Origin: Chiloscyllium plagiosum | Taxonomy: Eukaryota | Length of the DNA stretch: 64,000 bases | Direction of reading: 5' to 3' | Assembly: GCF_004010195.1 (NCBI RefSeq) | Contig: NC_057718.1 | Span: 70,728,580 to 70,792,579 of the forward strand | Part shown: one piece after another, positions 363-62,340 of the stretch | Layout: each line of letters begins with the position of its first letter | Position numbering within the stretch: position 1 is the stretch's first letter | The notes under the pieces: model-generated | Seen by the model: the letters and a program-made list of their open reading frames with translations, nothing else | What the model was told of the DNA's origin: nothing | Databases searched by the model: none | Position numbers and translations under genes: made by a program

Positions 363-732
363 ACCTATAACCACACTGCCTCAACATTGAATTCACCAGT
401 TTCAAAATCTCTCCAGCACCCCACCCCATCTTGGATCCAACCCTCCATCTCAGCATCAAGCTTACCTAGCTGTCCATCTTCCTTCCCATCTGTCCACTCC
501 ACCCTTCCCATTGAATTATCACAATCACCTCCTATCGCCATCCCACCTACTTTCCCCAGCCCCGCACCCATTTATTTCTCAGCTCCTTTCCCCCTCCCCA
601 GGCCTGATGAAGGGTCCTCCCCAAAACATTGACTCTCCTGCGGCTCAGATGCTGCCTAACCTGTGTGCTTTTCTCAGTGTGGCACTCTATCTATTCTGAC
701 CCTCCAGCATCTGCAGTTCTCACTATCTTCTA
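363..732 (+). mobile_element. Penelope-like element 3' end (family A) with degenerate hammerhead
   Basis: A GIY-YIG C-terminal-like stretch (LNIEFTSF), a pyrimidine-rich 3' region, CTGATGA-AGGG-tcct-CCCC-AAAAC at 604-627, then the family-A tail (gatgctgcc...ccagcatctgcagt..tcact). Confidence 0.7.
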
Positions 733-1575
733 GTTACTGCAATCCTTTATTTATGCTAACACACTACCTCCAATATGAGGGGCTCTTAGCTTATTAAGTA
801 ACCCAATATGTGGTGCCTTATCAAATGTCTTTTGAAACTCCACATATATTACATCCCCTTTCATTTTAAGACTATTCATATGAGTTCTAGACCATGCAGC
901 AAACTGAAACTAAAACAATCTCTTAGTACTTATGCAGTAAGCCCATTCAAAATCTTGAGATTTACTTCTAAAAAAAAAGGGCACAATTTACTCATCCTTT
1001 CATTGTTGGTCTCTCAGACAAAAGTGTTGTCTTTTGTCATGAACCTTTAATGCATTATCTCCAGTGCAAGTATGTTCTTTCTTAAGTAAGAAGAACAAAC
1101 AGATACAAGTATATTCCAGATATGCTGCCATAAAAAAACATCTGTAATTACAAGACTTCTTGAAATAAAGGCCAACATGCTATTTGTCTTCCTAACTGCT
1201 TTTTGTACCTGAAGGCTAACTTTTCAGCATGAATATATCCAAATCTCTCTAAACAGTGACATTGAAAGATTCATGCCTCTTAAGAAATGCCCTGCTTTTC
1301 TATTCTTATGACGATCTTTTTGCAGCCTTTGTGTTTTCCCCAAAACATACATTTCCATCTTGCGTTACATTGTTAGCAAACATAATTACATTACTTTGTT
1401 CAAGACACTCATATCAATTGCAAATAGTTAAAGTGCTAAGACTGATCCTTTTGGCATTCACAGCCTGCCAAATTTAAAATACCTAATTTAATCCTACTCT
1501 TTGATTCCTGACCTTTAACCAATCATCTATCCATGTGAAGATATTTTTCACCCAACTCCACAAAGTCTTCAAATA

Positions 1576-1805
1576 AGATGCTGGACATCTGAAACAAAAA
1601 CAGGAATTGCTTGTGAAACTCAGCAGGTCTAGCAGCATATCTGCAGAAAAAGCAGAACTAATGTTTCAAGTCTAGTACCTTTTCATCACAACAAGTCTAC
1701 AGAACAGTTCTGATGAAGAGTCACCGGACTCAAAACATTTACTCTGCTTTCTTCCCACAATCCTGCCAGACCTGCTAAGTTTTCCCAGCAATCTTTGTTT
1801 TTGTT
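1576..1805. mobile_element. PLE-derived fold-back element, family B
   Basis: Imperfect inverted arms (aaacaaaaacaggaattgc...agcaggtct / cagacctgct...gcaatctttgtttttgtt). Hammerhead-like CTGATGA-A-GAGTC-accg-GACTC-AAAAC starts at 1710. Confidence 0.7.
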
Positions 1806-1903
1806 CCTTGCGCCCTTATCATGTCTATTAATTGTTTGCGTGGCACCTAATCAAACAGCTTTTGGAAATCCCAATATTCCAATCCCTCCATATAGATCTT
1901 AGA

Positions 1904-2220
1904 CTAGATTACCTACAGTATGGAAACAGGCCCAACAAGTCCACACCGGTCCCCCAAAGAGTAACCCACCCAGATCCATTCCCCTGCCGTAAATTTACCC
2001 CTGACTAATGTGCCTAACAATATGAGCAATTTAGCATGGCCAATTCACCTGACCTGCACATCTTTGGATTGTGGGAGAAAACCAAAGCAACCAGAAGAAA
2101 CCCACGCAACACAGGGAAAATATGCAAACTCCATACAGACAGTCACCCAAGACAGGAATCGAACCTGGGTCCCTGGCACTGTGAGGCAGCAGAGCTAACC
2201 ACTGAGCTACCATACAGCCA
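1904..2220 (-). mobile_element. HE1-type V-SINE
   Basis: Reverse complement of the tRNA-derived head (tggttagc...ggttcgattcc), the V-domain (tgtctgtatggagtttgca) and the HER1-like tail. Confidence 0.9.
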
Positions 2221-2894
2221 CTAGTTTGTTAGAACCTCTTTGTTATATCCTCAAAAAACTGTAAGAAGTTTGTAAAACATAATTTCACTTTTTGAGAATG
2301 ATGTTGACTTTATCCAATCATGCAATGCTTCAGTGCATATTTAAGACTTGCTTAAAAATAGGTTCCAGCACTTACCCAAAGTTTAATATCAAGTTAACTG
2401 GTTTATAGTTCACTGTTCTTTTTCTATCTCATATCTTGAATAGTGGTGTAACATTTACTAACATCCAGCCTGATAAGACTAATCTAAAATATAGGGAATT
2501 TTGGAAAATTGTGTCCAGCCCATCTACTATCTCTGTTGCTACCTCTTCTAGAATTCTGGGATATAAGGATTTGTCAGATTCTAGCTTTTTAAGCTTGTTC
2601 AATGCTTTTTCTCTGACATTAATTCCTTCAGTGGCCTTGATTGCACTTTTATTTTGGTATGCAAGTTGTGTTTTCTCCTTTGAAGACAGACAAATTAGTT
2701 GTTCACTTTCTTTACTATTGCCGCATTCCCAATTACCATTTCTCCTGTTTCTGCTTATATGGGATCTATGTTTAGTTTAGCAACTCTCTTCCTATTTATA
2801 TATTGATAAAAATTCTTACAACCAATCTTTTTGTATTTATGGGTAATTTGCACTCATATATCAGTTTTCCCTTTCTAACCAATATTTTAGCTGT

Positions 2895-3183
2895 CCTTCT
2901 GAGGAAGGGTCACTCAACCTGAAATAGGTAAAAACAATGACTGCAGATGCTGGAAACCAGATTCTGGATTAGTGGTGCTGGAAGAGCACAGAAGTTCAGG
3001 CAGCATCCGAGGAGCAGTAAAATCAATGTTTCGGGCAAAAACTGCTCCTCGGATGCTGCCTGAACTGCTGTGCTCTTCCAGCACCACTAATCCAGACTCA
3101 ACCTGAAATGTTAACTCTGATTTCTTTACATAGATGATGCCAAACCTGCTGAGCAGTTCCAGCAATTTCTGTTTGCATTTTTT
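2895..3183 (+). mobile_element. PLE family-B tail interrupted by a family-A fold-back element (2926-3095)
   Basis: A 14-bp direct repeat actcaacctgaaat at 2912-2925 and 3096-3109 flanks an inverted-repeat insert. Removing it restores ctgaggaagggtcactcaacctgaaatgttaactctg, similar to 10982-11018. Confidence 0.85.
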
Positions 3184-3296
3184 CTATCCTTTCTTGGTTT
3201 CTAAAGCAATACAATTGCTACTATTCTTTGTAACATCATAAGCTTTTACTTTTAATTTAATAGTATCCTTAACTCCATTATAAGTAAGATATTTTA

Positions 3297-5713: not shown

Positions 5714-5762
5714 CTTTAAAAGTTCCACAGGCGGAGGAGTAGGAGGTACAATGGCAATATTA
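5714..5762 (-). CDS. SYTL3: SYTL3 coding exon 5 (proline-rich VPPTPPP)
   Basis: Acceptor gttttctctttcag, donor gtaatg, 49 nt, phase 2 to phase 0. Encodes (S)NIAIVPPTPPPVELLK, resembling SYTL3 SKISVVPPTPPPV as recalled. Confidence 0.88.
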
Positions 5763-6531: not shown

Positions 6532-6773
6532 AAGATTAGAGTGGTGCTGGAAAAGCACACCAGGTCAGGCAGCATCTGAGGAGCAGGAAAATCGATGTTT
6601 CAAGCAAAAGCCCTTCATCGGGAATGAGGCAGGGAGCCTCCGGAGTGGCGGCTCCTGATGAAGGGCTTTTGCCCGAAAAGTCAATTTTCCTGCTCCTCAG
6701 ATGTGGCCTGACCTGCTGTGCTTTTCCAGCACCACTCTAATCTAGATTCTGATCTGCAGTCCTCACTTTCGCC
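6532..6773. mobile_element. PLE family-A fold-back element with hammerhead core
   Basis: 17-bp TSD ttcgttaaatctgggtc (6515-6531, 6774-6790), inverted arms, and CTGATGA-A-GGGC-tttt-GCCC-GAAA at 6655-6678. Confidence 0.88.
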
Positions 6774-6830
6774 TTCGTTAAATCTGGGTCGAGTAAACAA
6801 TCATTGCTAGGTCAAAGTGTGAATTTGCTA

Positions 6831-7019
6831 GAAGAAAGTGAGGACTGCAGATGCTGGAGATCAGAGCTGAAAATGTGTTGCTGGAAAAGCAAAGCGCAGC
6901 AGGTCAGGCAGCATCCAAGGAGCAGGAGAATCGACATTTTGGGCATGCCCGAAACGTCGATTCTCCTGCTCCTTAGATGCTGCCTGACCTGCTGCGCTTT
7001 TCCAGCAACACATTTTCAG
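6831..7019. mobile_element. PLE family-A fold-back element
   Basis: 18-bp TSD caaagtgtgaatttgcta (6813-6830, 7020-7037). The arms invert about gggcatgccc (6941-6950). Confidence 0.88.
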
Positions 7020-7204
7020 CAAAGTGTGAATTTGCTAAAGCTAGAGAATGTATTTATCTATTCCTCTACTATGAAGCCAATCTCGCTCAGCACTTTCAAC
7101 ATATATTATATTCAAGTCAGTGTGGTAGAACTGTGGCTTAGATGATAGCACAAAATGAGCGATAATGCAGCAAAAGTTTGATATTCAGTTCCAATTGCGA
7201 TTTT

Positions 7205-10307: not shown

Positions 10308-10520
10308 TAGGCGAGAGAAAGTGAGGGCTGCAGATGCTGGAGATCAGAGCTGAAAATGTGTTGCTGGAAAAGCGCAGCAGATCAGGCAGCATCCAAGGAA
10401 CAGGAGAATCGACGTTTCGGGCATAAGCCCTTCTCCTGATGAAAGGCTTTTGCTCGAAATGTTGATTTTTCTGCTCCTCGGCTGCTGCCTGACCTGCTTT
10501 GCTTTTCAAGCACCAAAATC
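10308..10520. mobile_element. PLE family-A fold-back element, apparently chimeric
   Basis: The left arm is the aaaatgtgttgctgg/gggcataagccc subtype and the right arm the ggcttttgctc/gcacca subtype. CTGATGA lies near 10436. No TSD is evident. Confidence 0.75.
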
Positions 10521-10944
10521 TCTCTTTGGATCTAATACTATCCCTAATTTCTTTTGTGTGCTATAATTGAGCAACCTTTCCTGTTTAATTTTTTTGCATC
10601 AGAAAAGAATGGATAATTGCAGTAATTCATGCTTAATGTGCTTAAACATTAGTTATTGCCTATCCACTGCCAAAGCTTTTTACTAAGGTTTTATGGTTAT
10701 CCATAAGTTAAAGCGGAATCTAATCTTTCAAATGTTTCATTGTTAACTATCCAGATAAGTGAGTTGGAACCCTTCGATATCTCTGACTTTAGCTCAGAGT
10801 TAAAGACATTTTCAAAGGGTTCTACCTGCCAGGTAATTGTCCATTGAAAGTTTACATTTTCTGAGAAATTCCCAGGAAGTAAATCCATCAGGATTTTGAG
10901 GGGACACATGGTATTTCTTTCAAGATAAATGAAAACTGAAAGAA

Positions 10945-11082
10945 CTGAGCATGCTGTAAATCAGAAACATAAACAGAAATTCTGAGGAAGGGTAACTGGA
11001 CTTGAAATATTAACTCTGATTTCTCTTCACATATGCTGCCAATCCTGCTAAGCTTTTCAGAAATTTCTGTTTTTATTTCTTT
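10945..11082 (+). mobile_element. PLE family-B tail with degenerate hammerhead
   Basis: ctgaggaagggtaactggacttgaaatattaactctg at 10982-11018, followed by the family-B tail. Confidence 0.7.
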
Positions 11083-16370: not shown

Positions 16371-16434
16371 TTGCAATCTGCTAGTCATTGGCCTACACCA
16401 ACCTACTTATCACACCAGCACTGAAATCCATATA

Positions 16435-16804: not shown

Positions 16805-19770
16805 CAAAAAAAACACAGAAAATGCTGGAGAAACTCAACTGGTCTCACAGCATCTGCAGAGAGAGAGACATGATTCAACTCTGATATGGGGCAGCTCAGG
16901 GCTCAGTGGTAAGCCCTGATTCAAATCTTGGATGACTACCCGTGTGGAGTTTACATGTTCTCCCCATGTCTGCGTGGGTTTCCACCGGGTGCTCTGGTTT
17001 CCTCCCACAGTCCAAAGATGTGCAGGTCAGGTGGACTGGCCATGCTAAATTACACCGTGGTGTCTAAGGATGTGCAGGTTAAGGGAAACTGGTCATGGTA
17101 ATGCGGGGTTACAGAGATAGGGTGGGGGTTGGGTCTGGGTGGGATGCTCTTTGAAGAATCGGTGTAGATTTAATGGGCACAATGGCTTCTTTCCACAATG
17201 TAAGGATTCCATAATTCTATGACTTCTTCAGAACTGTAATGGGGCTGGAAAATGATGTGTTTTATTTGTTTGACAGAAGCAAAGGACAGACAGGAACAGA
17301 TGGTGTTGAGTCCCTGTGCGAAAGAAAAGCGACGTTGCTAATTATGGTGAAAGAGAAGTTAAGATGTAAAATGGATGTAAATTGACATGTGAAAGAGAGA
17401 AAGTGGATCCTCTTTGCTGACAGCAAAGTCAAGATGACACAAATAAGACAAGGCCATTGTTGGTGCAGTGGAGAGGGGGTGCCAGAGGACAGACGTTAAG
17501 TGGTCAGGCTTTGAAATTGTTGAATTCAGCATGGTTGAAAAGTACCTAAGTGGAGACTGAAATGTTGCTCCCTGAGCTTGTATTGTTCTTTATTGTATGA
17601 TTGCAACAGGCCTAGAACATAAATGTTAGTGTGAGAGCAAAGTGGTTTATTGAAATGGAAGGTGGGTATCATTCCTACAGACAAAGCAGAGCAGTTCTGC
17701 AAAGCAGTCACTTCATCTGCATTTGGCCAGTGTAAAGGGGATCACATTATGAGCAAAAGGTGCAGCAAACTAGATGAAAAGAAATAGAAGTAGAACACTG
17801 CTTACCTGGAAGGATGTTTGGGGCCTTAGATGGTGAGGAGGGAGGAGGTGAATGGGCAAGAGTTACACCTCCTGAGATTGCACAGGAAGGTGCAATGGGA
17901 GAAATGCGAAAGTGTTGGGAGTGATGAAGGAGTGTTCTAGGTATCACTGAGGGAATGATCCCTGCAGAATGATGACAGTGGAAGGGAGGGACAGATGTAT
18001 TTGGTGTTGGAAATTGGAAGCAAAGCTGATTAATTTTTCCAATTCTGGTTAAGAACAGGAAGCAACTCCAATGATATCATGATGTATCAGAGAAATAGTT
18101 ATGGCTGCCCCTAAGCAGAACTGGCACAAGGAATGTTCCACATAACTTACAAAGAGATCTATGCAGGTACCCATATCCATATCTGACTTGAGAGTAAGCT
18201 TAGTCAATGGAGAAATTGTTCAAAGTGAGAACAAACTCAGACAGGCGAAGAAGGGTGGTGGCGGATGGAGACTGTGCAGGACACTTTTCAAGTAAGAAGC
18301 AAAGAGCCTTCAGATCATACTGATGTGAAATTGATGTGCAAAGGGATTGTACATCCATGGTGAAGAGGCAGCAGCTAGGACCAAACAACTTGAAATTGTG
18401 GAACCGATGTAAAGCATTAAAAGAATCATGAATCTAAGTAGGGAGAGAATGAACAAGAAGAGTACAAATACAGTCAAGATAGGAAGAAACAGAAGTGCAG
18501 GAACCAGCTGAAATTGTGGCTTTGCCAGGGCAGTCATGTCTGTAAATTTTGGGAAGGAAGTACAAGTGTGTAGTTGGGGGACCAGCAGGTGGGAAGCTGT
18601 GGAAGGGAGATTAAATCAGTTTCAGTACTAGAATCAACTACTCGATGCTTAGTGTTGGTATCTTGATCAAAGGCAGATAGAATAAAGTGTTTCAGAGTTG
18701 GCACACAAACTCTGGCAGGTAGAGATTAGCATGCTAGATGACATTACATGACTCTTATCGATAGGTTTGGTGACAAAGTCAGGATTGGACCTGAGAGGAC
18801 TGAGGGCAGCAAGTTCAGATGAAGACAGGGTGAGAGATGCAAAAAATTTAAGGACATCAATATATCAGTAGTACTCAATGAAGAGATCATGTACAGGTAA
18901 AAGGCCAGAGGGAAGGGTCCAGGTGGAGATGAAGTATTGGAGACTGGTGAAAGGTTCTATGTGGCACTGAGAAGACACTTGCATTGAGATGGGGGCATTA
19001 AAGGATAAAGCTAGGTTCTTTGCTAAGCAGAGAGAGAGCTAAGAGTGGACATGTTCCATGAGCATGGATCACAGGAGGTGGTGGGAGCAGCTGTCAGAGG
19101 AATTTTACGTCTGTAATTTTGTTTGGATTTGAAAGATTAAGGATAGAACTTCGTGGGCGGCACGGTGGCACAGTGGTTAGCACTGCTGCCTCACAGTGCC
19201 AGAGACCCGGGTTCAATTCCCGCCTCAGGCGACCGACTGTGTGGAGTTTGCACATTCTCCCCGTGTCTGCGTGGGTTTCCTCTGGGTGCTCCGGTTTCTT
19301 CCCACACTCCAAAAATGTGCAGGTTAGGTGAATTGGCCATGCTAAATTGCCTGTAGTGTTAGGTGCAGGGGTAAATGTAGGGGAATGGGTCTGGGTGGGT
19401 GCGCTTCGGCGGGTCGGTGTGGACTTGTTGGGCCGAAGGGCCTGTTTCCACACTGTAAGTAATCTAATCTAATCTAATCTAATGTAAACTTCAGCTGGCA
19501 TCCATGTGGGCTAAAGCAGAGTCAGGGACAGTGACTAAGAAAGTAGATGTGACTGTGAAAACAAATGTTTTATCCAACACTAGTTAAGAAATAGAAATCA
19601 ATGAAGGTGAACTGGCCAAAAGATTAAAACAGAAATCCTGTCTGAGAGAAGGGCAGAATTTCAAGGTATTGTTTCCTCTGGAATTGGAAAAATTGATCAG
19701 TTTTGTTTCCAATTTCCATCTTTCTCTCACTTACACCTGGTATATATCTAACTCCTCATTCCCCTTCACT
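16805..19770 (-). mobile_element. Long decayed Penelope-like retroelement (RT + GIY-YIG) with two nested HE1 SINEs
   Basis: Minus-strand LFTMDVQSLCTSISH...LLRLSEFVLTLNNF (RT motif A), STSISFHLVCCTFCS (GIY-YIG start) and HLGTFQP (C-terminus), with a family-B-like tail at 16805-16880. HE1 copies at about 16887-17222 and 19155-19483. An inverted RT piece (ELEKLISFVSNFH..TW.IS.SSFPF) lies on + at about 19678-19767. Confidence 0.82.
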
Positions 19771-20249
19771 TCAAAAGCCCTCTTGAATGCCTCAATTGAA
19801 CCTGCTTTCTTTTTAAAAGTCACTGAGGAAATCATATCAAATGCCATTTTTATAAAGTATGTTACATTTAGAAAGGACTAGTTCTCTGCTGCAACTGTTC
19901 TATTGCTTGGATTATGCAATTTAACAACCTGTTAGGTGTTATTAACATCTAACTCATACTTGAATATCAAATTCTCCCCAGACTCTTTCAACATCAATTT
20001 TCACAAACACCAGGCACATACAGTATAGATATGAAACCGGTTAAGACCAGCAGTGTAAAATGGGCTGATAGCTAATTGGCTGTCAGATTTTCATGAGAAA
20101 TTAATTTGGCACTGTTTAAAACATGGACATTGACACATTCAATTCATGTGCTCTGTCAGTATGGTTTCTCCGCTGTACTAAGTTTCTGAATGCAGCATAT
20201 AATCTGAACCCTCCTATAGTTTTCTTTATAAACTACTGGTTGAATGTTG

Positions 20250-24129: not shown

Positions 24130-24400
24130 GATGCAGTGCAACAAGCCTCAGATGTTGGCCAGGGAAGTGGCAGGCAACTAGAAGCTCTGGGTCTTTTTTG
24201 CGGACAGAACGTAGGTGTTCTGCAAAATGGTCACCCATTTCCATACATTGATTCCTCAATGTATACAAGACCATATTATGAGCAGCGAATACAGTAGACT
24301 AGATTATGTGAAGTGCAGCTGCTACACCTGGAAGATGTTGGGGCTCTTGGATACTGAGGAGGGAGGAAATAACTGGACAAGTTTTATAGCTTCTGCGGTC
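24130..24400 (-). mobile_element. Penelope GIY-YIG endonuclease fragment
   Basis: The minus strand reads CTSHNLVYCIRCS*YGLVYIEE...GDHFAEHLRSVRKKDPELLVACHF. Confidence 0.8.
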
Positions 24401-24624
24401 ACAGGGCACGTACATATCCAAGTACATATCTGCTTTTTGGTCCCTACTCAGCCATACTCTTCCTTTTACCACCCTTTCCCTAGAAATATGGCCATAGAAG
24501 ATTTTGGGACACCTCTTCATGTTGGCTTCCAGTCTTCTCTTACTTGCTTTTGCTTCTCCCCTCTGAGTTGAAACTTTATTGCTGGAACAGCACAGCAGGT
24601 CAGGCAGCATCCAGGGAACAGGAG

Positions 24625-24660
24625 ATTCGACGTTTCGGGCACAGGCCCTTCTTCAGGAAT
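24625..24660 (-). ncRNA. Minimal type-I hammerhead ribozyme motif (mirror copy)
   Basis: Exact reverse complement of 24659-24694, in the sense of the SYTL3 pre-mRNA. Confidence 0.8.
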
Positions 24661-24694
24661 TCCTGAAGAAGGGCCTGTGCCCGAAACGTCGAAT
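24659..24694 (+). ncRNA. Minimal type-I hammerhead ribozyme motif
   Basis: attc-CTGAAGA-A-GGGC-ctgt-GCCC-GAAAC-GTC-gaat: stem I attc/gaat, intact core, 4-bp stem II, palindromic ACGT in place of stem III, GUC site. Confidence 0.8.
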
Positions 24695-27600
24695 CTCCTG
24701 TTCCCTGGATGCTGCCTGACATGCTGTGCTGTTCCAGCAATAAAGTTTCAACTTTGATCTCCAGCATCTGCAGACCTCACTTTCTCCTCTCCCCTCTGAA
24801 CCTTCCATATTTCTCGATTCTCAATTTGATTTTCTGCCTGATGCTTATCATAAACACACTTTTACTCCTTTATATTAATTTATATCTCTTGTGTTATTCA
24901 GGTATCTCTGGATTTGTTTGTTCTAACTTCCCCATTGGAGCATGTGCCGAAATCAGTTCCATTGTTCAGGTACTTCTTTTCCTGCCACTCTCTCAATTCT
25001 GCCAAATCCCTGTTCTTGCCCCACTGAAGTCTACTCTCCACAAATTGATTTTTCTCACTCTGAATTGTTGCATGTCATTCACTACCATCATTCTGAATCT
25101 TACGATACAACGACCATTGCTTCCTAAATATTCCCCAACTGACACTAAATCCACTTAGTCCACCTCATTTCTAAGAATTAGATCTAAATGTGCATCCTTT
25201 CTTGAAAACTAGACTAGAAAATTACTGCGCTCCCGCATGCAATCCAGGAATACTTACCTCCCGCAGCTCTGTACACTAGATCATAGAATCCCTATGGTGT
25301 CAAAACAGGCCATTTGGCCCATCAAGTTCACACTGACTGTCCAAAGACCATCCCACCCAGACCCATCTCAACCCTAGGACCCTGCATTTCCCCATGGCTA
25401 AACTACGTAGCCTGCACATCTCAGGATACTATGAACAAGTTAGCATGGCCAATCCACATAACCTGCACATCTTTGGACTGTGGGAGGAAACCAGAGCACC
25501 CAAAGAAAACTCACGCAGACATGGGGAGAATGTACAAACACCACACAGACAATCACCTGAGAGTGGAATCAACCTGGGTCTGTGGTGCTGTCTGGTCAAT
25601 GCTTGGGTAATGGAAGTCTCCCATTATAACTACACTATAATGTTAGCAGCTCTCTGTAATTTCCTTATACATTTGTTCTTCTACATCTTGTCCATTAGTT
25701 AGTGGTCTATAGAATACACCCAGTAATGTGATTGTATCTTTTTTTGTTCCTTAGGTTTAGCTAAATAGATTTTCAGCTTGGACCCCCAGGTCATCCTTTC
25801 TCCAGCATTGCAATGTGCTCCTCAACAAATACTGCTCCTGCTCCTACTTTCCTCCCTTTTCTATCTTTTTTGAACACCTTATATCTAGGAATATTTAACA
25901 CCCAGTTTTGTCCTTCCTCAAGCCAGGTCTCTACTATCACTACAACATCAAAATTCTACATAACAATCTGCACTATAACTCCCTATCTTATTTACTATAC
26001 ATCATGCATTCACATACATGCACAATTAGCCTTGACTTTTTCCTTCCTCACTCTCACTTAATTTAACAACTTGCTGTCTATGTTAGTGCCAGTTGCACAT
26101 CTTATATACTTTGTGAACCCTGGTCTTCTCCTCTACTATTCTCACTTGATATCCCCCCTGCCAAATTACTTTAAAGCTTTCCCGAAAGTATTATCAAAAT
26201 GCCTTGCAAGGAATTCAGTCCCAGCTCTATTCAGGTGCAACCCATCCAGCCTGTACACTTGCCATCATCCCAAGGGCCAGTCCCACATTCATCTGCCTTC
26301 ATCGATTTCTGCACACACTTCATATGGCACTGGGAGTAAACCAGGAATTACTACGTGAGGTGCTGCTTGCTAATCTTCTACATAGCTTCTGAAATTTTGA
26401 TTGCTGGACCACATTCTCCTTCCTCCCCAAGTCATTGGTACCAATGTGGACCTTAATCTCTGTTTCTGGATTAGTGGTGCTGGAAGAGCACAGCAGTTCA
26501 GGCAGCATCCAAGGAGCAGTAAAATCGATGTTTCGGGCAAAAGCCCTTCATCAAGAACCCTTACCCCAAAAGAATGTTCTGCAGCCACTGTGTGACACCC
26601 TGGTGCGACCTGGCACCAGGGAGGCAAAATACCATGCTGGGGTTAGGTTGACAACCACAAAAACGCCTATACGTTCTCCTAATTAATAAATCCTCTATTA
26701 CTATTGCTCCTCCTTTCCTTCTTCCTGTCCAGAAAGCCCCACACAGTGCAATAAACGTAACTCTGGCTTCTCTCTCCTGAGAAATCTGTGTCCCCATCAG
26801 CTTCCAAAATGGAAAATCAATTTCTGAGCAGGATGCCACGGACTCTTGCAGTGCCTGCCAGTTTTGCATGGACTACTTGACCATCTTCCTTCTTCCAGGC
26901 TCTTAAGCTACAGTGTGACTACCTCTCTGAATGTAACTCTCAGTCTCAATGTGCCACAGTGTCTCCAGATGTTGTTCAAGCTCTGAAATGTGAAGCTCAA
27001 GTTTCTGCAGATGGAAGAACTCCCTGCACATTTGGTTGTTTTGGACCTCAGTAGAGTCCTAAAAGAAATCCATGGATCAGATGTTGCTGAAATGGCAATG
27101 GAGGACGAGGTGGCAGAGACATTAGTTTCCTAAAAGCGAATAAAAATCAGTTATTAGAAAGAACCAGATCAGATTCCTTTGAGGAAAATCAAAGAATTAA
27201 GGGTGGAAACTGTGGAGACATTGACCACGATCTCTCAATTTCCTCAGACTTACAATTAGTGCCAGAGGACTTGAAAAATTCCCATTCTTATTTTTAAAAA
27301 TCCCACTTAAGTAACCCGTTTGAGTTTTTCAATGAAGTAACAGAAGGTTGACCAGAGCAACACAATTGATGTGGAGTTGAATGATCTTCCAGTAGGTGTT
27401 TTGAAAGGCTTGCCAGCAAAATAAACCATGGGATCACAATGACAGTGGCAACACTGAGTAACAAGCACTAAGAACTGAAGTGAATAATTGCTTTTCATAT
27501 CAGAAAAAAGTATCTTTGCTTTGATATATTATTGACCTAAACTTAAACAAATCTGAAACAAGGCTTAAGTGTACAAGACCAAATCTCAAAAGGAAGATAG

Positions 27601-28799: not shown

Positions 28800-29220
28800 T
28801 GTAGTGGGTAAGCAGTACTCTCGCTTCACAGTTGGGGATCTATTACATTACCTAGCAGATGTGCTGTCTTTCAAATGAACACTGCATGCTTTCTCAAGTG
28901 GATACAAAAGATCCAATAGCACAATTGACAGAAGAGAGGTGGGGGGGGGGGGGGATTGTGCTGATGCCGTGGACAAAATAAACAACATCACTGAAGCAAC
29001 AGAAAGTGAGGACTGCATATGCTGGAGATCAGAGTTGAGGGTGTGGTGCTGGAAAGACACAACAAGTCAGGCAGCATCCGAGGAGCAGAAAAATCAATTA
29101 TGAAGGGCGTATGCCCATAATGTCAATTTTCCTGCTCCTCGGATGCTGCCTGACCTGCTGTGTCATTCCAGCACCACACTCTCAGTATCACTAAAGAAGG
29201 TCATCTGGTTACCAAATTGC
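28800..29220 (+). mobile_element. Deu-domain SINE relic with nested PLE family-A fold-back (about 29000-29184)
   Basis: gtggatacaaaagatccaatagcac...aacatcact is split by an inverted-repeat insert, flanked by a degenerate repeat atcact(g/a)aag. Confidence 0.65.
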
Positions 29221-34130: not shown

Positions 34131-34495
34131 CAGAGTGATTAATGCCATAAAATACTGAAGATCCATCTCTTAACTCTCTTAGAAGCTTAGCTGCCTTCTC
34201 TCCACAAAGTCTGACTTTTTGTAAAGGGTAGGTGATCCATGCAACACCAGGTTATAGTCCAACTGGTTTACAGAGGAACCTCAATTAGTAAAGAAGGCGT
34301 TTGGTATGCTTTCCTTTATTGGTCAGAATATTGAGTACAGGAGTTGGGAGGTCATGTGGCGGCTGCACAGGACATTGGTTAGGCCACTGTTGGAATATTG
34401 CATGCAATTCTGGTCTCCTTCCTATCAGAAAGATGTTGTGAAACTTGAAAGGATTCAGAAAAGATTTACAAGGATGTTGCCAGGGTTGGAGGATT

Positions 34496-34689
34496 NNNNN
34501 NNNNNNNNNNNNNNNNNNNNNNNNNNNNNNNNNNNNNNNNNNNNNNNNNNNNNNNNNNNNNNNNNNNNNNNNNNNNNNNNNNNNNNNNNNNNNNNNNNNN
34601 NNNNNNNNNNNNNNNNNNNNNNNNNNNNNNNNNNNNNNNNNNNNNNNNNNNNNNNNNNNNNNNNNNNNNNNNNNNNNNNNNNNNNNNNN
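34496..34689. other. Assembly gap (194 N)
   Basis: Run of N inside a CR1 copy. Confidence 0.99.
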
Positions 34690-34982
34690 GAAGGGTCTGT
34701 TTCCATGCTGTACATCTCAATGACGCTATGACTCTATCTGAAGGACACCTGCGGAGAGTATTTCATTCGATTATTTGAATTCCGGATTATCAAATGCCGG
34801 ATAACATAGTTTAGCCAAGCACTGGGACCTTGCAATCTTGCCAGATAATCTGATATTTGGATAATTGAATGCTGGATAATTGAGGTTCCTCTGCATTTGG
34901 AGACACTAGCTTTCGAAGCGCTGCTTCTTTATCAGGTGGTTGTAAATCACGATCGTAAGATCTTATGATCCTGCTCCACAAC

Positions 34983-35017
34983 CACCTGATGAAGAAGCAG
35001 TGCTTCGAAAGCTAGTG
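34983..35017 (+). ncRNA. Minimal type-I hammerhead motif, family C
   Basis: cac-CTGATGA-A-GAAGC-agt-GCTTC-GAAAG-CTA-gtg: stem I cac/gtg, 5-bp stem II, palindromic AGCT, CUA site. Confidence 0.75.
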
Positions 35018-35130
35018 CCTCCAAATAAGCCTGTTGGACTATAAGCTGGTGTTGTGTGATTTTTAACTTTGTCCACCTCAGTCCAACACAGGCTCCTCCA
35101 AATCATAGGTGAACCACAGTACACTTCAAC

Positions 35131-35317
35131 GTTGTGGTTCTGTTCGCCGAGCTGGGAATTTGTGTTGCAGACGTTTCGTCCCCTGTCAACGTGACATCCT
35201 CAGTGCTTGGGAGCCTCCTGTGAAGCGCTTCTGTGATCTTTCCTTCGGCATTTGTAGTGGTTTGAATCCGGATTCAAATACCGGAGCACCCAAGCTACAA
35301 ATCTTCTCACAAACTTT
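35131..35317. mobile_element. PLE family-D short inverted insertion
   Basis: 12-bp TSD gtacacttcaac (35119-35130, 35318-35329). Retains many CpGs and contains a minus-strand hammerhead. Confidence 0.8.
35167..35206 (-). ncRNA. Minimal type-I hammerhead motif, family D
   Basis: The minus strand reads gca-CTGAGGA-T-GTC-acgttgacaggg-GAC-GAAAC-GTC-tgc. Confidence 0.72.
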
Positions 35318-41640: not shown

Positions 41641-41874
41641 TCTAATCAAGTGCTCTCCAAAGAATTCCACATGACAAATGACAGTCATTTTGCCTGATGA
41701 AGGACCAGCACTCCAAATAGTGGCTGCTCATCCTCCCTCTCTGTAATGCAACTCCTCCACCTCTTTAACATCCCTTTCTGATTTAATTTGAGCCTTTCAG
41801 AGTTCCAGACATAGAGAGTTGTCCAGAAAAATCTTCAATTTCCCAGGCAATTCCTTTCGTGCGTGTGCTGATGG

Positions 41875-46224: not shown

Positions 46225-49200
46225 ACATAGAACAATACAGCGCAGAACAGGCCCTTTGGCCCTCAATGTTGCGCTGACCTATGAACTAATCTAAGTCCAT
46301 CACCCTGGACTATCCCATCATTATCCATATGTTTATCCAAGGACTGTTTAAATGCCCCTAAAGTGGCTGAGTTAACTACATTGGCAGGCAGGGTATTCCA
46401 TACCATTACCACTCTGAGTAAGAACCTGCCTCTAACATCTGTCTTAAATCTATCACCCCTCAATTTGCAGTTATGCCTCTTTGTACAAGCAGATGTCATC
46501 ATCCTAAAAAAAAGACTCTCACTGTCCACCCGATCTAATCCTCTGATCATCTTGTATGTCTCTATTAAATCACCTCTTAGACTTCTTCTCTCCAACGGGA
46601 ACAGACCCAGGTCCCTCAGCCTTTCCTCATAAGACCTTCACTTCAGACCAGGCAACATCCTGGTAAATCTCCTCTGCACCTTTTCCAATGCTTCCACATC
46701 CTTCCAATAATGGGGCAGTACTGCACACAATACTCCAAATGAGGCCGCATTAGCATTTTCGAGGAGAAAGTGAGGACTGCAGATGCTGGAGATCATAGCT
46801 GAAAATGTGTTGCTGGAAAAGCGCAGCAGGTCAGGCAGCATCCAAGGAGCAGGAGAATCAACGTTTCGGGCATGAGTCCTTATTCACACTACCAAGAATA
46901 TTTCCAGTGACCCAGTATTCTGCCTTCCTGTTATTCTTCTCAAAGTTGTCTCTACAGCCCTTCTTGAACAAGTCACAACATTCGCAATCCTCCAGTCCTC
47001 TGGTACTAAACTTGTAGACAATGACAACTTAAAGATCAAGGCCAAAGGCTCGGCCATCTCCTTCCTAGCTTCCCAGAGAATTCTCGGATAAATCCCATCC
47101 AGCCTAGGGGATTTATCTACTTTCACACCTTCTAGAATTGATAACACCTCCTCTTTACTAATCTCAATCCTTTCAAGTCTAATAGCCCATATGTCAGTCT
47201 TCTCCTGTACAATATTCTCCTTTCTCGGAGTGAAAACAGATGAGAAAAATTCATTTAGCATCTCTCCGATCTCTACAGGGTCCCACTTCTGTCTTTGACA
47301 GGCCCCATTTCTACCCTCATCATCCTTTTATTCTTCACATATCCATAGAAAGCTTTAAGGTTCTCTTTTATTCCACCTGCTAAAGACTGCTCATGACCCC
47401 TCCTTGCTCTTCTAACTCTCTCTTTATATCCTTCCTAGCTGCTCTGTAACTCTCCATCGCCTCATCTGAACCATCTCGCTTCAATGTCAATAAGCCTCCC
47501 TCTTCTGCTTAACAACAGATAGAATTTCTTTAGTAAACCACGGTTCCATTACTTTATCACTTCCTCCCTGCCTGGCAGGGACATACCTATCAAAGATACA
47601 CAATATCTGTTCCTTAAAACCAGCTCCACATTTCAATTGTCTCCATCCCCTCCATTTTGCTGCCCCATTCTCTGCCTCCTAAGTCTTGCCTAATCGCATT
47701 ATAATTCTCCTTCCTCCATCTATAACTCTTGCCCTGTGGCATGTACCTGTCCCTTTCTTTTGAGAAACTAAATGTAACCAAATTATGGTCACTCTCTCCA
47801 AAGTGCTCACCTCTCACTAAATCAAACACTTGGCCTGGTTTATTACCAAGTACCAGATCCAGTGTGGCCTCCCCTCTTGTTGGCCCTTTGACATACTGTG
47901 TCAGGAAACCCTCCTGCACAAGTTGGACAAAAACTGGTCCATCCGACGTACCAGAGTTATAGCATTTCCAGTCAATATTGGGGAAGTTAAAGTCCCCATA
48001 ATGACCACCCTGTTCCTTTCACTCCTGCCCAGAATCAATTTGCCAATCCTCTCATCCACATTCCTGGAACTTTGCAGAGGCCTTTAAAAAACTCCCAGCA
48101 GTGTGACCTCTCCTCTCCTGTTTCTAACCTTAGCCCATACCACCTCAGTAGACAAGCCTTCATCAAAAGTTCTTGCAGCCACCGTTATACCGTCCTTGAC
48201 TAACAAAGCCACACCTCCTCCTCTTTCACCACCTTCCCTGATCTTAATGAAAGATCTAATCCCTGGAAGCTGCAACATCCATTCCTGATCTTGATCTATC
48301 CATTCCTCAGTAATGGCTACAATATTGAAGTCCCAGCTCAATATTGTAAGCTCACATACCTTATTCCTGATACTCCTGGCATTGAAATAGACACACTTCA
48401 AACCAGCTTACTGTCTGCCAGCACACTCCTGTGACCGTGAAATCCTGTCCATTTCCTCCCTACTCTCATTCTCCTGTGTACTGGAATACAACACAGGATC
48501 CCATCCACCTGTTGAGCTAGTTTAAACCCACCCGAATAGCAAATTTCCCACCCAGGATATTAGTACCCCTCTGGTTCAAGTGAAGACCGTCCTGTTGTAG
48601 AGGTCCCACCTTCCCCAGAATGAGCCCCAATTATCCATAAATCTGAAACCCTCCCTCCTGCACCATCCCTGCAGCCACATGTTCAGCTGATATTTCTTCC
48701 TGTTCTTTGCCTCGCTATCACATGGCTTGGGTAACAACCCAGAGATAACAACTCTGTTTGTTCTCATTCTTAACTTCCACCCTAGCTCCCTGAAATCCTG
48801 CCTTACATCCCTATCCCCCTTTCTATCTATGTCTTTGATATCTATGGACCACGACTTGGGGCTGGTCACCCTCTCCCTTCAGGATCCCAAAGACATGATC
48901 CAAGACATCACGGTCCCTGGAACCTGGGAGGCAACACACCAACCGTGAGTCTCTTTCGCTCCCAACAAACCTTCTATCTGACCCTCTAACTATTGAGTCC
49001 CCAATGACAAACACCCTCCTCCTTTCCCTCCTTCCCTTCTGTCTAACAGGGACAGACTCTGTGCCAGAGACCTGCACTACAGTGCATGCCCCTCGTGGGC
49101 GGCACGGTGGCACGTGGGCGGCACGGTGGCACAGTGGTTAGCACTGCTGCCTCACAGCGCCGGAGACCCAGGTTCAATTCCCGCCTCAGGTGACTGACTG

Positions 49201-52257: not shown

Positions 52258-52318
<61 letters not shown>

Positions 52319-55228: not shown

Positions 55229-57258
55229 ACAAAATTTTGATGTGCATATAGAACAAGCTGCCGAGGAAGTGTTTGAGTTGGGTACAATTACAACATTGTA
55301 ATGACATTCAGACAGGTACTTGGATCAGAAAGATTTCGAGGGCCAAATTCAGGTAAATAGGATTAGTTCAGTTTAGGAAGCCTCATTGGCATGGCCGAAT
55401 TGTGCTGAAGGGCCTGTTTCCATGCTGTGCAACTCTCTGAGACTATGCTGACATATGATATATTTCTAAACTAAAACCTTTATCCCTCTATTCCCTGCTA
55501 TTCATATATCTGTCAATATGTCTCTTAAATATTGCTATTGTACCCACCTCCACCACTTCTTCTGGCAGCGCACTCCAGGAATTTACCACCCTCTGTGTAA
55601 AAAACTTACATCTTACATCTCCTTTAAACATACCCCCTTCTACCTTAATCTTATGTCCCCTATGAATTGACATTTCTACCCTGTAAAAGAGACTCCAACT
55701 ATACATTCTATCAATGTCTCTCATAATTTTGTAAACTTCTATCAGGTCACTTCTCAGACCCTGACATTCAAGTGAAAACAAACTGAGTTTGTCCAATCTC
55801 TTCTCAAAGCTTCTACGCTCCCAATCAGGCAACATCCTGGTAAACTATTTCTGCACATTCTCCAAAGCCACCACGTCCTTCTGATTGTGCGGTGACCAGA
55901 ACTATCTGTATATGGAATATTCCAAAGGCCTAACAAAAGTTCAATACAGCTTCAAAGTGACTTTCCAGTTTTTACACACTTATGACCCAAATGATTAAAG
56001 CAAGCATGTTCTACTTCTTCTGGATCACCTTATCTTTTATTGACTTGTGTAGCCACTTTCAGGGAACTGTGAACCTTACACATAGATCCCTCTGTATGTT
56101 AGTGCATCTAAGGGTTCTGTCATTTACTGTACACTGCCATTCTGCATTAGAGTCTCCAAAATGCATCACCTCACATTTTCCAGTTTAAACTCCATCTGCC
56201 ATTTCTCCACCCAATATATAATAATGCAATGTATAAATTACAAGTAAAAGGGGTCTCAGGACCGGTTGCTGTGGGACACTGTTGGGCCACAGATCTCCAA
56301 ACAGAAAAATATCCTTCCACTGCTCCTCTATCTCTTCTAAAACTGAACCAGTCATGCAACCATTTTACCAGCTTACTACCAGAAGATGTGACTTCATATT
56401 CTGTATCTGCCTGCCATGTGGGACCTTATCAAAAGTGTTGTGAAAGTCCATGTGGACATTATCACCCTATCCTCATCAATTATGTTTGTCACTTCCTCAA
56501 AAAAACTCAATCAGTTTTGTGAGACTTCCCTGCACAAGCCATGCTGCCTATCACTAATAAGTCCAATCTTGCCGAAATGTGAATAAATCCTGTCCCCAAG
56601 AATCTTCAATAATTTCTCTACCACTGATGTAAGGCTCACTGGCCTGTAATTTTCCAGATTAATCCCTTCTTAAACAAAGGAACACCACTGATATTTTCCA
56701 GTCATCAGAGACCTTTCCTGTGATGAGAGAGGAAAAAAACTTTCTGTAGAAGGTCCAAGCATTTGCTTCCCTTAGCCTTGTAGGATGGATCCCATCTGGG
56801 GACCTGTCTCCCTTAGTGCTTTTCAAAACACCCAACACATCTTTTTTATATTTACATGCCCTAGAATATCAACATACCCCTTCCAAGATTCACCATACAC
56901 GATGCCTTTCTCCTTTGTGAATACCGATGCAAAGTACTCATTCAGGACCTCACCCATTTATGGAGGATTAGCATCATACAGCACAGAAACAGGCCCTATA
57001 GCCCAATTTGTCCATGTTTACCAGTTTTCTAAACTGAACCACTTCCATGCCTACATTTGGCCCATATCCCTCAAAATCTTTCCTATACATGAACCTGTTC
57101 AAATGTCTTTTAAATGTTGTAATTGTATTCACCTCTAAGACTTCCTCATACACATATACACATGACCCTTCCTCTGGCTCCTCACACAATTTCCCTTCTT
57201 TGTCCTTGAATGGACCTACTCTTTTCCTAGCTATCTTACCATACCTTACTTCGTTAAA

Positions 57259-57460
57259 AATGACACAATATCAGGTTATAGTCCAACAGGTTTATTTGGA
57301 AGCACTACCTTTTGAGGTGCTGCCTCTTCACAACCAGTTGGTGAACAGGCAGCGCCTCAAAAGCTAGTGTTTTCGAATAAACCTGTTGGACTATAACCTG
57401 GTGTTGTGTGACTTTAACTTTGTTCACCCCTGTCCAATACTGGCACCTCCAAATCATGAC
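57259..57460. mobile_element. PLE family-C fold-back element (decayed hammerhead cores)
   Basis: Inverted arms caggttatagtccaacaggtttattt / aataaacctgttggactataacctg. Confidence 0.85.
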
Positions 57461-58514: not shown

Positions 58515-59165
58515 CACAACTGGGGAGACAAAACGCAGGCTAGGTAACTGCTTTGCAAAACATTCATGCTCGGTCTACAAAAATGGCTCAGAACTTCCTG
58601 TTGCCTGCCACTTCAACACACCACATGTTCCCTGGCTGACATCTATGTCTCAGGTTTACTGTAGTGCTACAGTGGAGCTCACCATGAACTGGAAGAAATG
58701 CATCCCATTTCATGTTTGGGGACCCAAATTTAGGGCCTAAGCACTTCTCCTATATCCTTACCCCAAACCCTCACACACCAAGCCTTGTCATCACATGGTG
58801 TGCTACCACAAACATCCCATTTGTCAGCCACTAATGATCCCCATTAGTAGCTATTGATTCTCCCAGGCTGACATTTACCCATTCCTTTGGTTACCCAGTT
58901 GTTTTTTTTCTCTCTCTCTCTCTCTCTGGGCTCCAACCCCATCTATTGCTTAATCATGCACCCACCCTCATTGCATCTTCAGCATATATATATATATATA
59001 TATATATACACCTTTTCCTTACTAAAGTCAGATCTGAAAAAGGGTCACTAGACTGAAAACATGCATTTTGCTTTCTCTCCACAGATGCTACCTGACATGC
59101 TGAGTTTTTCCTGCAATTTCTGGGGGGGTTTCTGATTCCCAGCAACAGTTCTTTGGTTTCCTTTG
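58515..59165 (+). mobile_element. Penelope 3' end: GIY-YIG fragment joined to family-B hammerhead tail
   Basis: GETKRRLGNCFAKH..SV....LPVACHFN, then a pyrimidine-rich region with (ct)n and (at)n, then ctgaaaaagggtcactagactgaaaacat at about 59034 and the family-B tail. Confidence 0.82.
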
Positions 59166-60009: not shown

Positions 60010-60440
60010 TAGGAGGTGGAGGAGGAGGAGCAGGAGAAGGAGGAGGAGGTGAGGACTGAAGATGCTGGAGAGCAGAATCAAAATGTGTAGCGCTGGAAAA
60101 GCACAGGATGTCAGGCAGCATTCGAGGAGCAGGGAAATCAACATTTCAGGCATAAACCCTCCATCAGGAATGTGGAGGGGCAAGGGGGCTGACAGATAAA
60201 TAAGAGGGGGTGGTGGGGCTGGGGGGAAGGTAGCTGGGAAGGCAATAGGTAGATGCAGGTGGGGGGTGATGGTGATAGTTTAGAGTGGAGAGTGGAGCAG
60301 ATAGGTGGAAAGGAAGATGGACAGGTAGGACAGTTCAAAGAGGATGGTGTCGAGATAGAGGGTTGGATCTGAGATAAGGTAGGAGAGGGGAGATGAGGAA
60401 ACAGGTGAAATTGATGTTGATGCCATTCGTTGGAGGGTCA
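60010..60440 (-). mobile_element. Penelope 3' end, family A
   Basis: Reverse-complement homologue of 363-732, with degenerate core attcCTGATGGAGGGTttatGCCTGAAATGTT. Confidence 0.78.
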
Positions 60441-61162
60441 CAGGCCAATTTGGCCATCAAGTCTGTGCTGACTCTGAAAGACCTATTCACAAAGTGAATA
60501 ATAATCTAATCTTTTTTGAATGACTTGATTCAACTGACTTGCACTATATTTTTAGGCAGTAGATTTCAAACTCTAACATGATGTCTGAGAAAGTTTTTCT
60601 TACGTTACCACTGTTTCTTTTGTCAACTACCTTAAAAGGTACCCTCAGAATCTTGATGCTTCCATCAATGGAGCAGTTTCTATCTATTCTACCAGGACCC
60701 CCTCATGATTTTGAGCACCCTCATCAATTCGCTCTCAACCTTCCCTTCTCCAAGGTACACAGTGTCAACTTCTTCAAATCTATTTACATGATTAAAGATC
60801 CCCATCTCTGAAATCACTCTTGTGAATCTTTTCTGCACTTTCTACAGTGTCTTCATACTCTTCCAGATCTGGAAGCAATGTTCCATTTATGGCAAAGCAG
60901 TATTCCACAGATATTTAACACAGCCTCCTTGTTTTTATACTCAATGCCCCAATTAATGAAGCCTTGAGGCCAAATGCTTTATTAACCTTTCTCTCAACCT
61001 GCTACCTTTATTCACATATACACCTCTATCCTCTGCTCCTGCATCCTCTAGAATTGTGCCCTTTATTTCATATTATCTGCCTGCATTCTTCCTACCATGA
61101 ATCACTTCACACGCTTATGGATGCCCCAGGACCAGCCTGCCATCAACATATCAACAACTAGT

Positions 61163-61558
61163 TGTGTTCAATTGATCAGGGTGATTGAGCCCTGATCGAT
61201 CGATTGGTGGACATTGAAGAGTCTCCCAAAAGGGCGTGACGACTTTTAAGTATAAGCATCGTTGCAACACCACCCTCAGAAGTGGTAACTCGAGAACAAC
61301 CACCATGAAGGGAAGATACCCCTGAGACCAGCAGGAGAAAAATGCCAGACGATCACTGCCATGTGGGTCAAAGCCAAGATCTAATGTGTTATATGATCAT
61401 GCAGAGTTAGGTTAAAGCACAAGATAGTTGATTAAATAGTGTTAGTATAAAGTGTTAGTTTGTATTGTATTTTATTATTATAATATTAATTGTATTAAAT
61501 AAATGTCGTTTAAGAATTGACTCACAGTTTCTTTGCTAGAAATAAGAGTTAATACACA
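61163..61558 (+). mobile_element. Candidate solo LTR
   Basis: About 395 bp, begins TGTG and ends CACA, with a TATA-like tataag at about 61251 and AATAAA at about 61498. CpG-retaining and sharply different from its flanks. No TSD found. Confidence 0.5.
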
Positions 61559-61559
61559 C

Positions 61560-62340
61560 TGTGTGGCAGGCTCAACACCTTCATTGGTCAGTGCACTGAA
61601 TATAGGAGTTGAGTGTCATGTTGTGGCTGTACAGGATATGATATAGAGATGCTAATGTTGGACTGGAGTGGAGAAGTCAGAAGTCACACATCATCAGATT
61701 ATAGTCCAATAGGTTTATTTAAAATCACGAGCTTTCAGAGCACAGCTGATGAAGGATCAGCGCTGCAAAAGCTTGTGATTTTAAATACGCCTGTTGGACT
61801 ATATTCTTTGGTGCTGTGTGACTTCTGATTTTATAGAGGGCACTTTCAGAATACTGTGATCAATTCTGGTCTCCCTGCTATAGGAACGATGTTGTTAAAC
61901 CTGAAAAGGTTTGGAAAAGATTTACAAAGACGTTGCCAGGATTGGAGAGCTCTGGGGAGAGGCTGAATAGGCTGGGGCTTTTTCCTCCTGGAGCACTAAA
62001 GGCTGAGTGGTGGTCTTATAGAAGTTTATAAAATCATGAGGGGCATGAATAGGGTCAGTAGCCAAGGTCTTTCTCCCTGTGTAGGGGAGGCCAAAGAGGG
62101 CACAATTTTAAAGTGAGAGGGGAAAGATTTAAATTGGACCTGAGAGGCAACTTGTTCATGCGGAGAGTGGTGGAGACAGGTACAATTATAACAGTTTAAA
62201 GACATCTGAATGGGTACATGAAAATGAAGGGCTAAAAGGATGCTGGTAAATGGTCCTGGATCAGTTTAGGATATCTGGTCAGCATGGATCTGGAATTGGA
62301 AGGAAGGGTCTGTTTCTGAGCTGTACAACTCTAAGACACT
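61560..62340 (+). mobile_element. CR1 3' fragment with nested PLE family-C fold-back (about 61640-61834)
   Basis: CR1 motifs are interrupted by inverted arms tcagaagtcacaca...gtccaa / ttggactat...tgtgtgacttctga, with ctgatgaagg at about 61746. Confidence 0.8.

What the first reader, a model, noticed from the sequence alone, without database searches (positions are those of the whole stretch)
363..61834. At least four families of short hammerhead-bearing fold-back elements derived from Penelope 3' ends
Seen: more than a dozen roughly 100-250 bp non-coding inserts with asymmetric inverted arms; several have 11-18 bp TSDs (2926, 6532, 6831, 24567, 34240, 35131). Families that differ in primary sequence share one architecture: short stem I, CTGAnGA, one extra nucleotide, stem II, GAAA, a self-complementary tetramer, then an NUH site. 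Stems covary: stem II is GGGC/GCCC (A), GAGTC/GACTC (B), GAAGC/GCTTC (C) or GTC/GAC (D), and the tetramer is ACGT or AGCT. The A and B tails are joined to GIY-YIG ORF ends in this window (363-732, 58515-59165, 60010-60440). Known: metazoan PLEs carry minimal type-I hammerheads proposed to act as dimers (Cervera and de la Pena). Inference: in this shark the ribozyme end alone is the commonest inserted unit, either as extreme 5'-truncation/inversion products or as a retrozyme-like non-autonomous class mobilised by PLE proteins.
Basis: partly seen in the sequence, partly recalled or inferred. Interest (0 to 1): 0.75.

Follow-up and report, generated by a model that had tools for sequence, protein, structure and literature searches.

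The report
Penelope retroelement fold-back stubs with hammerheads
These short mirror-image inserts are real end pieces of Penelope-like jumping genes carrying a known minimal ribozyme motif, not a new element class, and their fixed outer ends and one-sided tail likely record two separate copying starts on the front end of the element's RNA, one from each cut DNA strand.

Summary
The window has 19 loci in four families (A 10, B 5, C 3, D 1). Minimal type-I hammerhead motifs are real: 4 strict hits, 0 in 60 shuffles, stem II paired in 60 of 68 cells. All six named TSDs are present, one with a mismatch. The reading needs trimming. Hammerheads in pLTRs, an inverted short copy, a one-sided 30-40 bp tail and TSDs are the published signature of Penelope-like elements (PLEs). 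All 12 inverted inserts have different junctions, sequencing runs show no dominant junction, no tandem units exist, and a fold-back RNA is predicted to bury the ribozyme. A retrozyme-like class is therefore unlikely. What the copies add is a mechanistic hint. The tail is on exactly one side in 12 of 12. Of 26 short arms, 24 run past the predicted cut site and none stops at it. Fifteen end 23-38 nt upstream of it, about 30 nt behind an AT-rich box. Likely both DNA strands prime cDNA from two internal start sites near the mRNA's 5' end. This scan has noted the same thing many times on other DNA (393 notes, at least 26 genomes). Cleavage is untested.

The parts
362..732 (+). Family A long copy: last codons of PLE ORF (371-403), 3' UTR, decayed hammerhead (core at 604), tail
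1579..1805 (.). Family B fold-back, tail on left arm, decayed hammerheads, no TSD found
2895..3180 (+). Family B single arm, split inside its hammerhead by the 2926 insert
2926..3095 (.). Family A fold-back, tail left; 14-nt TSD 2912-2925 / 3096-3109; inner ends -16 and +7
6532..6773 (.). Family A fold-back, tail right; 17-nt TSD from 6515 and 6774
6831..7019 (.). Family A fold-back joined in loop II with 2-nt overlap, tail left; 18-nt TSD 6813-6830 / 7020-7037
10315..10515 (.). Family A fold-back whose arms seem to belong to different subfamilies (62 of 81 identical); tail left; no TSD found
10925..11073 (.). Family B fold-back with short left arm plus tail; 13-nt TSD with one mismatch
16806..18156 (-). 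Family B long copy: RT end, Cys-rich linker, GIY-YIG remnant, 3' UTR, hammerhead split by a ~330-nt repeat
24567..24787 (.). Youngest family A fold-back (arms 92 of 93 identical), intact hammerhead motif on each strand, tail right; 12-nt TSD 24555-24566 / 24788-24799
24659..24694 (+). Intact minimal hammerhead motif, family A; predicted cut after 24690
26462..26557 (-). Family A single arm without tail, inner end -31
29003..29184 (.). Family A fold-back, tail left; inner ends -3 and -25; no TSD found
34240..35105 (.). Family C fold-back, tail right, left arm split by a TIR-bounded insert (34271-34893); TSD 10 of 11
34983..35017 (+). Intact minimal hammerhead motif, family C; predicted cut after 35014
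35131..35317 (-). Family D (Poseidon-like): one arm with intact hammerhead motif (core at 35203, ATG at stem II), 9-nt inverted join, tail moved to the far end; 12-nt TSD from 35119 and 35318
46764..46886 (-). Family A single arm with tail
57257..57457 (.). Family C fold-back, tail right, decayed
58522..59150 (+). Family B long copy: GIY-YIG C-terminal remnant, 3' UTR, decayed hammerhead, part of tail
60050..60440 (-). Family A long copy: last codons of ORF, 3' UTR, decayed hammerhead, tail
61638..61832 (.). Family C fold-back, tail left, decayed

Best explanation
The inserts are short pieces of the terminal repeat (pLTR) of several Penelope-like retrotransposon families, each likely made anew at its landing site by the parent element's protein and likely dead on arrival. 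Shown: PLE ORF links for A and B; two fixed outer ends about 35 nt apart; one tail per insert; different junctions; arms that run through the ribozyme cut site. Inferred: (1) the mRNA starts about 30-37 nt upstream of the cut site in A-C (about 57 in D), so the hammerhead lies in its leader. (2) The protein cuts both target strands with a 11-18 nt stagger. (3) Each 3' end primes cDNA from one of two internal start sites, giving one arm with and one without the tail. (4) Both cDNAs copy uncut RNA toward its 5' end or stall in the ribozyme. (5) They are joined head to head through 0-5 nt overlaps. The motif is carried along as a passenger; any cleavage role belongs to the parent RNA.
For: Tail on exactly one side in 12 of 12 inverted inserts (read). 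Discrete outer ends in runs: family C 35070 (369 contigs) and 35105/35106 (428 + 838) in X1; A 24787/24788; D 35131. D's displaced tail is colinear with the short end in other copies (12 and 20 contigs; 60 RNA reads, 46 starts). Junctions 12 of 12 different. 24 of 26 short arms pass the cut site, 0 of 26 end within 2 nt of it, 15 of 26 end at -38 to -23 (hand-placed). AT-rich boxes at -60/-63 (A), -65 (B), -87 (D) and -67 (C, loose-end line). Sister arms match each other in 5 of 6 A fold-backs (87-99%). In vitro the anole PLE protein cuts and extends both strands, starts at two internal sites that define the tail, and uses uncut RNA (PMC11167929).
Against: No transcription start, cleavage or insertion intermediate was observed. 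The inner ends are spread (-103 to +47), and ribozyme structure alone could cause the cluster. The AT-rich boxes are decayed and were not tested against chance. In vitro the start site did not differ between strands, so one tail per insert needs an extra assumption (two enzymes on one RNA). 10315 has arms of seemingly different subfamilies, which one RNA cannot give. Five of 12 inverted inserts show no TSD. Arkhipova 2013 explains palindromic junctions by antisense self-priming instead. No genome was held, so counts rest on one window and fragmented contigs.
Confidence: 0.6

Rival explanations
1. Same identity (de novo PLE pLTR stubs), other mechanism: cDNA starts at the downstream pLTR, stalls in the folded ribozyme, and the inversion arises by fold-back self-priming or a template switch on one strand.
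For: Three junctions are symmetric palindromes (6831, 24567, 34240). Stem II is predicted to be stable in the A arm (P about 0.9). Four long copies show that priming downstream of an ORF happens. Self-priming was proposed in PMC3846280.
Against: Simple fold-back copying would give arms that end at the same outer position or at random ones; the observed ends are two fixed sites with one tail in 12 of 12. Most junctions are asymmetric. Family C RNA reads are polyadenylated at 35041-35044, before both outer ends, which would remove the downstream start sites if those reads are PLE transcripts.
Confidence: 0.3
2. A separately amplifying, retrozyme-like or MITE-like class of fold-back mini-elements mobilised in trans by PLE proteins.
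For: 15 of 19 loci have no ORF; 7 have their own TSD; summed depth suggests 10^4-10^5 copies per family (rough). pLTRs suffice for mobilisation in trans (PMC3846280). Two earlier unchecked notes report pairs with a shared seam.
Against: 12 of 12 junctions differ. Listed strand-switch joints in family A have at most 9 contigs and depth up to 298 against millions; 17 of 2,569 RNA reads over 4 joints. D junction depth is under 1% of arm depth. No tandem hammerhead arrays (0 of 11 rows). In a fold-back RNA the hammerhead costs 59-61 kcal/mol to form (predicted), and the two motifs lie on opposite strands.
Confidence: 0.08
3. Ribozyme self-cleavage creates the template ends, so the inserts are copies of cleavage products.
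For: Inner ends lie near the ribozyme; two arms end at -3 and +7.
Against: 0 of 26 short arms end within 2 nt of the cut and 24 pass through it; no read pile-up at the site (a weak test in a poly(A) single-cell library).
Confidence: 0.02

Closest known systems
Insertion units of endonuclease-positive PLEs with inverted pLTR, one-sided 30-40 bp tail and TSD (Arkhipova 2013 PMC3846280; Craig 2021 PMC8557442)
   Same: Head-to-head inverted arms, tail on one side, palindromes or overlaps at the junction, long TSDs, heavy truncation.
   Different: Here most inserts are reduced to the pLTR end alone (100-250 nt) at very high copy number; TSDs of 11-18 nt are longer than the 8-10 nt cited for Adineta.
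Minimal type-I hammerheads of metazoan PLEs (Cervera and de la Pena 2014, PMC4209133)
   Same: Extra nucleotide after A9, G10.1-C11.1 pair, palindromic 15.2-16.2, short stem I, several families per genome, mostly solo motifs, some pairs on opposite strands.
   Different: Stem II of A-C is 4-5 bp rather than 7-8; the parts read name no cartilaginous fish.
Anole Poseidon element PAc (Frangieh 2024, PMC11167929)
   Same: Two outer ends a tail apart; uncut template; in family D the ATG sits at the start of stem II with the cut about 28 nt from it.
   Different: A and B are tied to an ORF with a Cys-rich linker (Neptune/Nematis type); the passages searched do not link both-strand extension to inverted inserts.
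Non-LTR retrozymes (PMC7229834; bioRxiv 10.64898/2026.07.22.740005)
   Same: Non-coding, type-I hammerhead, pLTR-related; reported in one chondrichthyan genome.
   Different: Retrozymes are head-to-tail tandem units giving circular RNA; these are dispersed head-to-head inserts with no tandem units.

Membership tests
Endonuclease-positive PLE | C-terminal GIY-YIG domain joined to the terminal repeat | tested here: met
   B: 58522-58724 and 17532-18156 match PLE-type proteins, four of which have sub-cutoff Pfam GIY-YIG hits. A: last 11 codons only. C and D: no EN sequence in the window.
Endonuclease-positive PLE | Telomerase-like RT in a full single ORF | tested here: inconclusive
   Only a decayed RT-end match at 17953-18156; no full ORF, no tree.
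Endonuclease-positive PLE | Inverted truncated copy, one-sided 30-40 bp tail, TSD | tested here: met
   12 of 19 inverted; tail on one side 12 of 12; TSD in 7 of 12.
Endonuclease-positive PLE | Partial tandem that forms direct pLTRs | not testable with these tools
   None in the window; no genome held.
Neptune/Nematis clade (A, B) | Cys-rich linker between RT and EN | tested here: met
   C-x4-C-x2-C in the 16806-18156 copy; definition from PMC8557442. A is tied in only through similarity to B and its last codons.
Poseidon clade (D) | ORF start at stem II of the hammerhead, tail inside the ORF start | tested here: inconclusive
   ATG at stem II, 22 codons with one stop, as in PAc; no RT available for a clade test.
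Minimal type-I hammerhead | Core boxes, extra nucleotide, stem II with G10.1-C11.1, A15.1-U16.1, short stem I | tested here: met
   4 strict sites vs 0 in 60 shuffles; stem II 60 of 68 vs 18-35 of 68 slid; 15.1-16.1 17 of 17.
Minimal type-I hammerhead | Compensatory change within a family | tested here: inconclusive
   Family C: both sides of one stem II pair change in most copies (34995, 35005; unphased). None seen within A.
Minimal type-I hammerhead | Self-cleavage | not testable with these tools
   Needs a bench assay.
Non-LTR retrozyme | Two or more tandem units, each with a hammerhead on the same strand | tested here: not met
   No such array.
Non-LTR retrozyme | Circular or unit-length RNA | not testable with these tools
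   Only a poly(A) single-cell library was available.
Self-propagating mini-element | Many copies share one internal junction | tested here: not met
   12 of 12 differ; no dominant joint among those listed. Symmetric junctions and those outside the laid stretches were not visible.

The most novel reading that the evidence does not exclude
PLE insertion is natively double-primed: two enzyme units prime both cut strands from two start sites near the capped 5' end of the mRNA, sometimes on two different RNAs (10315). The inverted pLTR, the one-sided tail and the flood of solo hammerheads in animal genomes are then one product, and the stubs map each family's promoter.
Probability: 0.5. Interest if true: 0.6.

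Novelty: new member of a known kind. Interest (0 to 1): 0.3.

Why it matters
As objects the inserts are ordinary PLE debris. Their use is as a natural record of a step that reviews call unresolved: how PLEs form tandem/inverted structures and the tail (PMC8557442). With the anole in vitro system available, the one-tail rule and the inner-end cluster give direct predictions. It also cautions that genome-wide hammerhead counts in such genomes are mostly decayed passengers, not active ribozymes or retrozymes.

Tried and rejected
No whole genome held, so no genome-wide clustering. Rfam scan: 10 matches, all miRNA-type hairpins below their gathering scores, no hammerhead; rejected as hairpin artefacts. 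Pattern scans: 0 hits in viral contigs; 81 in metagenomes, none matching the window over more than 42 nt, taken as chance. Word-indexed protein search found nothing; Pfam on three window pieces gave no GIY-YIG hit. No RNA holder listed; run X22 laid 0 reads. One search had four mis-anchored rows; redone, where two rows were dropped (29097 cut by its junction, 2899 split by an insertion). MAFFT misaligned stems across families, so pairs were counted on a hand-anchored alignment. In one search only one of five A references was correctly anchored; inner ends were placed by hand from printed junctions. The arm tree was unresolved (1 of 13 branches starred). The bacterial promoter scan does not apply. 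Look-up of earlier notes by sequence found nothing. Paper searches for a printed two-strand model (Penelope, twin priming, inverted; 2 papers listed, not read, titles on other topics) and for PLE-derived miniature inverted elements or shark PLE hammerheads listed nothing on point; subscription papers such as Arkhipova 2006 are outside the library.
Full report
Observation. Self-comparison and profile searches give 19 loci in four families (A 10, B 5, C 3, D 1) and one 43-nt fragment. Twelve have an inverted layout. One search examined 20 intervals and found exact TSDs of 14, 17, 18, 12 and 12 nt at 2926, 6532, 6831, 24567 and 35131, and 13 nt with one mismatch at 10925; random pairs reached score 11 or more in 3 of 296. 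The 34240 element is split by an insert with 17-nt terminal inverted repeats, and its TSD matches at 10 of 11. Five inverted inserts have no TSD.

Ribozyme motif. A strict minimal-hammerhead descriptor finds 4 sites at 3 loci and none in 60 shuffles. On 17 arms that keep both halves (my selection; two rows dropped, four re-anchored), stem II is paired in 60 of 68 cells against 18-35 when slid, A15.1-U16.1 in 17 of 17, 15.2-16.2 in 10 of 17, and 7 of 17 keep all core letters; four of the five G12 losses sit in a CpG context. In sequencing runs both sides of one family C stem II pair are changed in most copies, unphased. These are the features of the PLE minimal hammerhead in PMC4209133 (parts 1-2 of 4 read), which also reports that most motifs are solo and cleave poorly. 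Isolated A and C motifs are predicted to fold as hammerheads, D's copy not; in the whole fold-back the stems have probability 0 and cost 59-61 kcal/mol. No cleavage was tested.

PLE origin. A profile of two window fragments found 34 proteins, best E 5.6e-08; 4 of 13 scanned have GIY-YIG hits below Pfam's cut-off. They map back to 58522-58724, 17532-18156 and 24164-24409. The 17532 piece continues through a 3' UTR into a B-type hammerhead split by another repeat, and has the Cys-rich linker of Neptune/Nematis PLEs (definition in PMC8557442, passages and section 15 read). The A copies at 363 and 60010 hold only the last codons, ranking joint first and third of 127,479 windows, beside one unrelated hit. 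D has an ATG at stem II as in the anole element. C has no ORF link here. Four of 19 loci reach an ORF; 15 do not.

The layout is known. An inverted truncated copy, a 30-40 bp tail on one side, junction palindromes and TSDs are described for PLEs in PMC3846280 (passages), PMC8557442 and PMC8969392 (passages). In the window the tail is on exactly one side in 12 of 12 inverted inserts. Runs show two sharp outer ends about 35 nt apart for C, a sharp tail end for A, and that D's displaced tail is colinear with the short end in other copies. PMC11167929 (parts 1-2 of 4 and passages) shows that these ends equal two internal reverse-transcription starts, that both target strands are cut and extended, and that uncut RNA is the template.

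Test of a separate class. All 12 junctions differ. On the A arm 27,144, 32,275 and 27,725 contigs were laid in three DNA runs; the listed strand-switch joints have at most 9 contigs and depth 298, against arm depths of millions, and 17 of 2,569 RNA reads over four joints. At D's junction depth falls to 5,463 from 1.0-1.4 million (X1) and to 28,197 from 2.6-3.8 million (X6). There are no tandem hammerhead units, which define retrozymes in PMC7229834 (passages) and bioRxiv 10.64898/2026.07.22.740005 (parts 1-3 of 5). Limits: contigs collapse symmetric junctions, junctions outside the laid stretch are unseen, 81 joints were not shown, and summed depth is no copy number; 10^4-10^5 per family is a rough reading.

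Mechanism. Of 26 short arms, 24 pass the predicted cut, none ends within 2 nt of it, and 15 end at -38 to -23 (hand-placed), so the templates were uncut. Long copies have an AT-rich box about 30 nt ahead of this cluster (A -60 and -63, B -65; C -67 from the loose-end line; D -87, with depth falling from about -56 on). I infer that the stubs copy the mRNA leader from two nearby start sites, one per cut strand, and are joined by short overlaps. Against: the ends are spread, stalling in the ribozyme fits too, start sites were not strand-specific in vitro, and 10315 has arms 62 of 81 identical that differ at 3 of 3 scorable diagnostic columns (tree unresolved), which needs two RNAs or later conversion.

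Verdict. Real, PLE-derived, known in kind (about 0.9). The two-strand, leader-copy mechanism is likely (0.6) and I found no paper stating it, within a library that lacks most subscription papers. The scan's earlier notes report the same elements and readings in at least 26 genomes; they are unchecked and are not counted as support. The host is called a bamboo shark only in those notes. PMC5753468 (passages) added nothing.

Noticed in passing
window 35024-35044 (family C): Most copies read AATAAA just after the hammerhead, and RNA reads carry poly(A) at 35041-35044 (518 + 121 reads, run X21) while spanning the predicted cut site. The pLTR supplies a poly(A) site, to PLE or host transcripts; part of the signal may come from one locus.
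   Followed up: partly
window 10315-10515: Fold-back whose two arms seem to come from different family A subfamilies; possible two-template insertion or gene conversion.
   Followed up: partly
window 34271-34893: Insert with 17-nt exact terminal inverted repeats, preceded by TA and followed by CA, holding a LINE fragment and an N gap; looks like a Tc1/mariner-type MITE (label recalled, not tested).
   Followed up: no
window 2895-3180 and 16885-17225: Two family B hammerheads are themselves interrupted, one by a family A fold-back and one by a ~330-nt repeat; may be chance or a target preference.
   Followed up: no
window 34973-35084: In DNA runs the family C hammerhead part has about a tenth of the depth of the part downstream; either most C copies stop short of the ribozyme or subfamilies differ there.
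   Followed up: no
window 24164-24409 and 19624-19782: Orphan PLE ORF fragments (linker plus GIY-YIG; RT end) with no terminal repeat attached.
   Followed up: no
window 41694-41725: Possible heavily decayed family C-like hammerhead remnant; not recovered by the profile search.
   Followed up: no
window 42704-42917: 117-nt direct duplication, 100% identical, 1.8 copies; recent duplication or assembly artefact.
   Followed up: no
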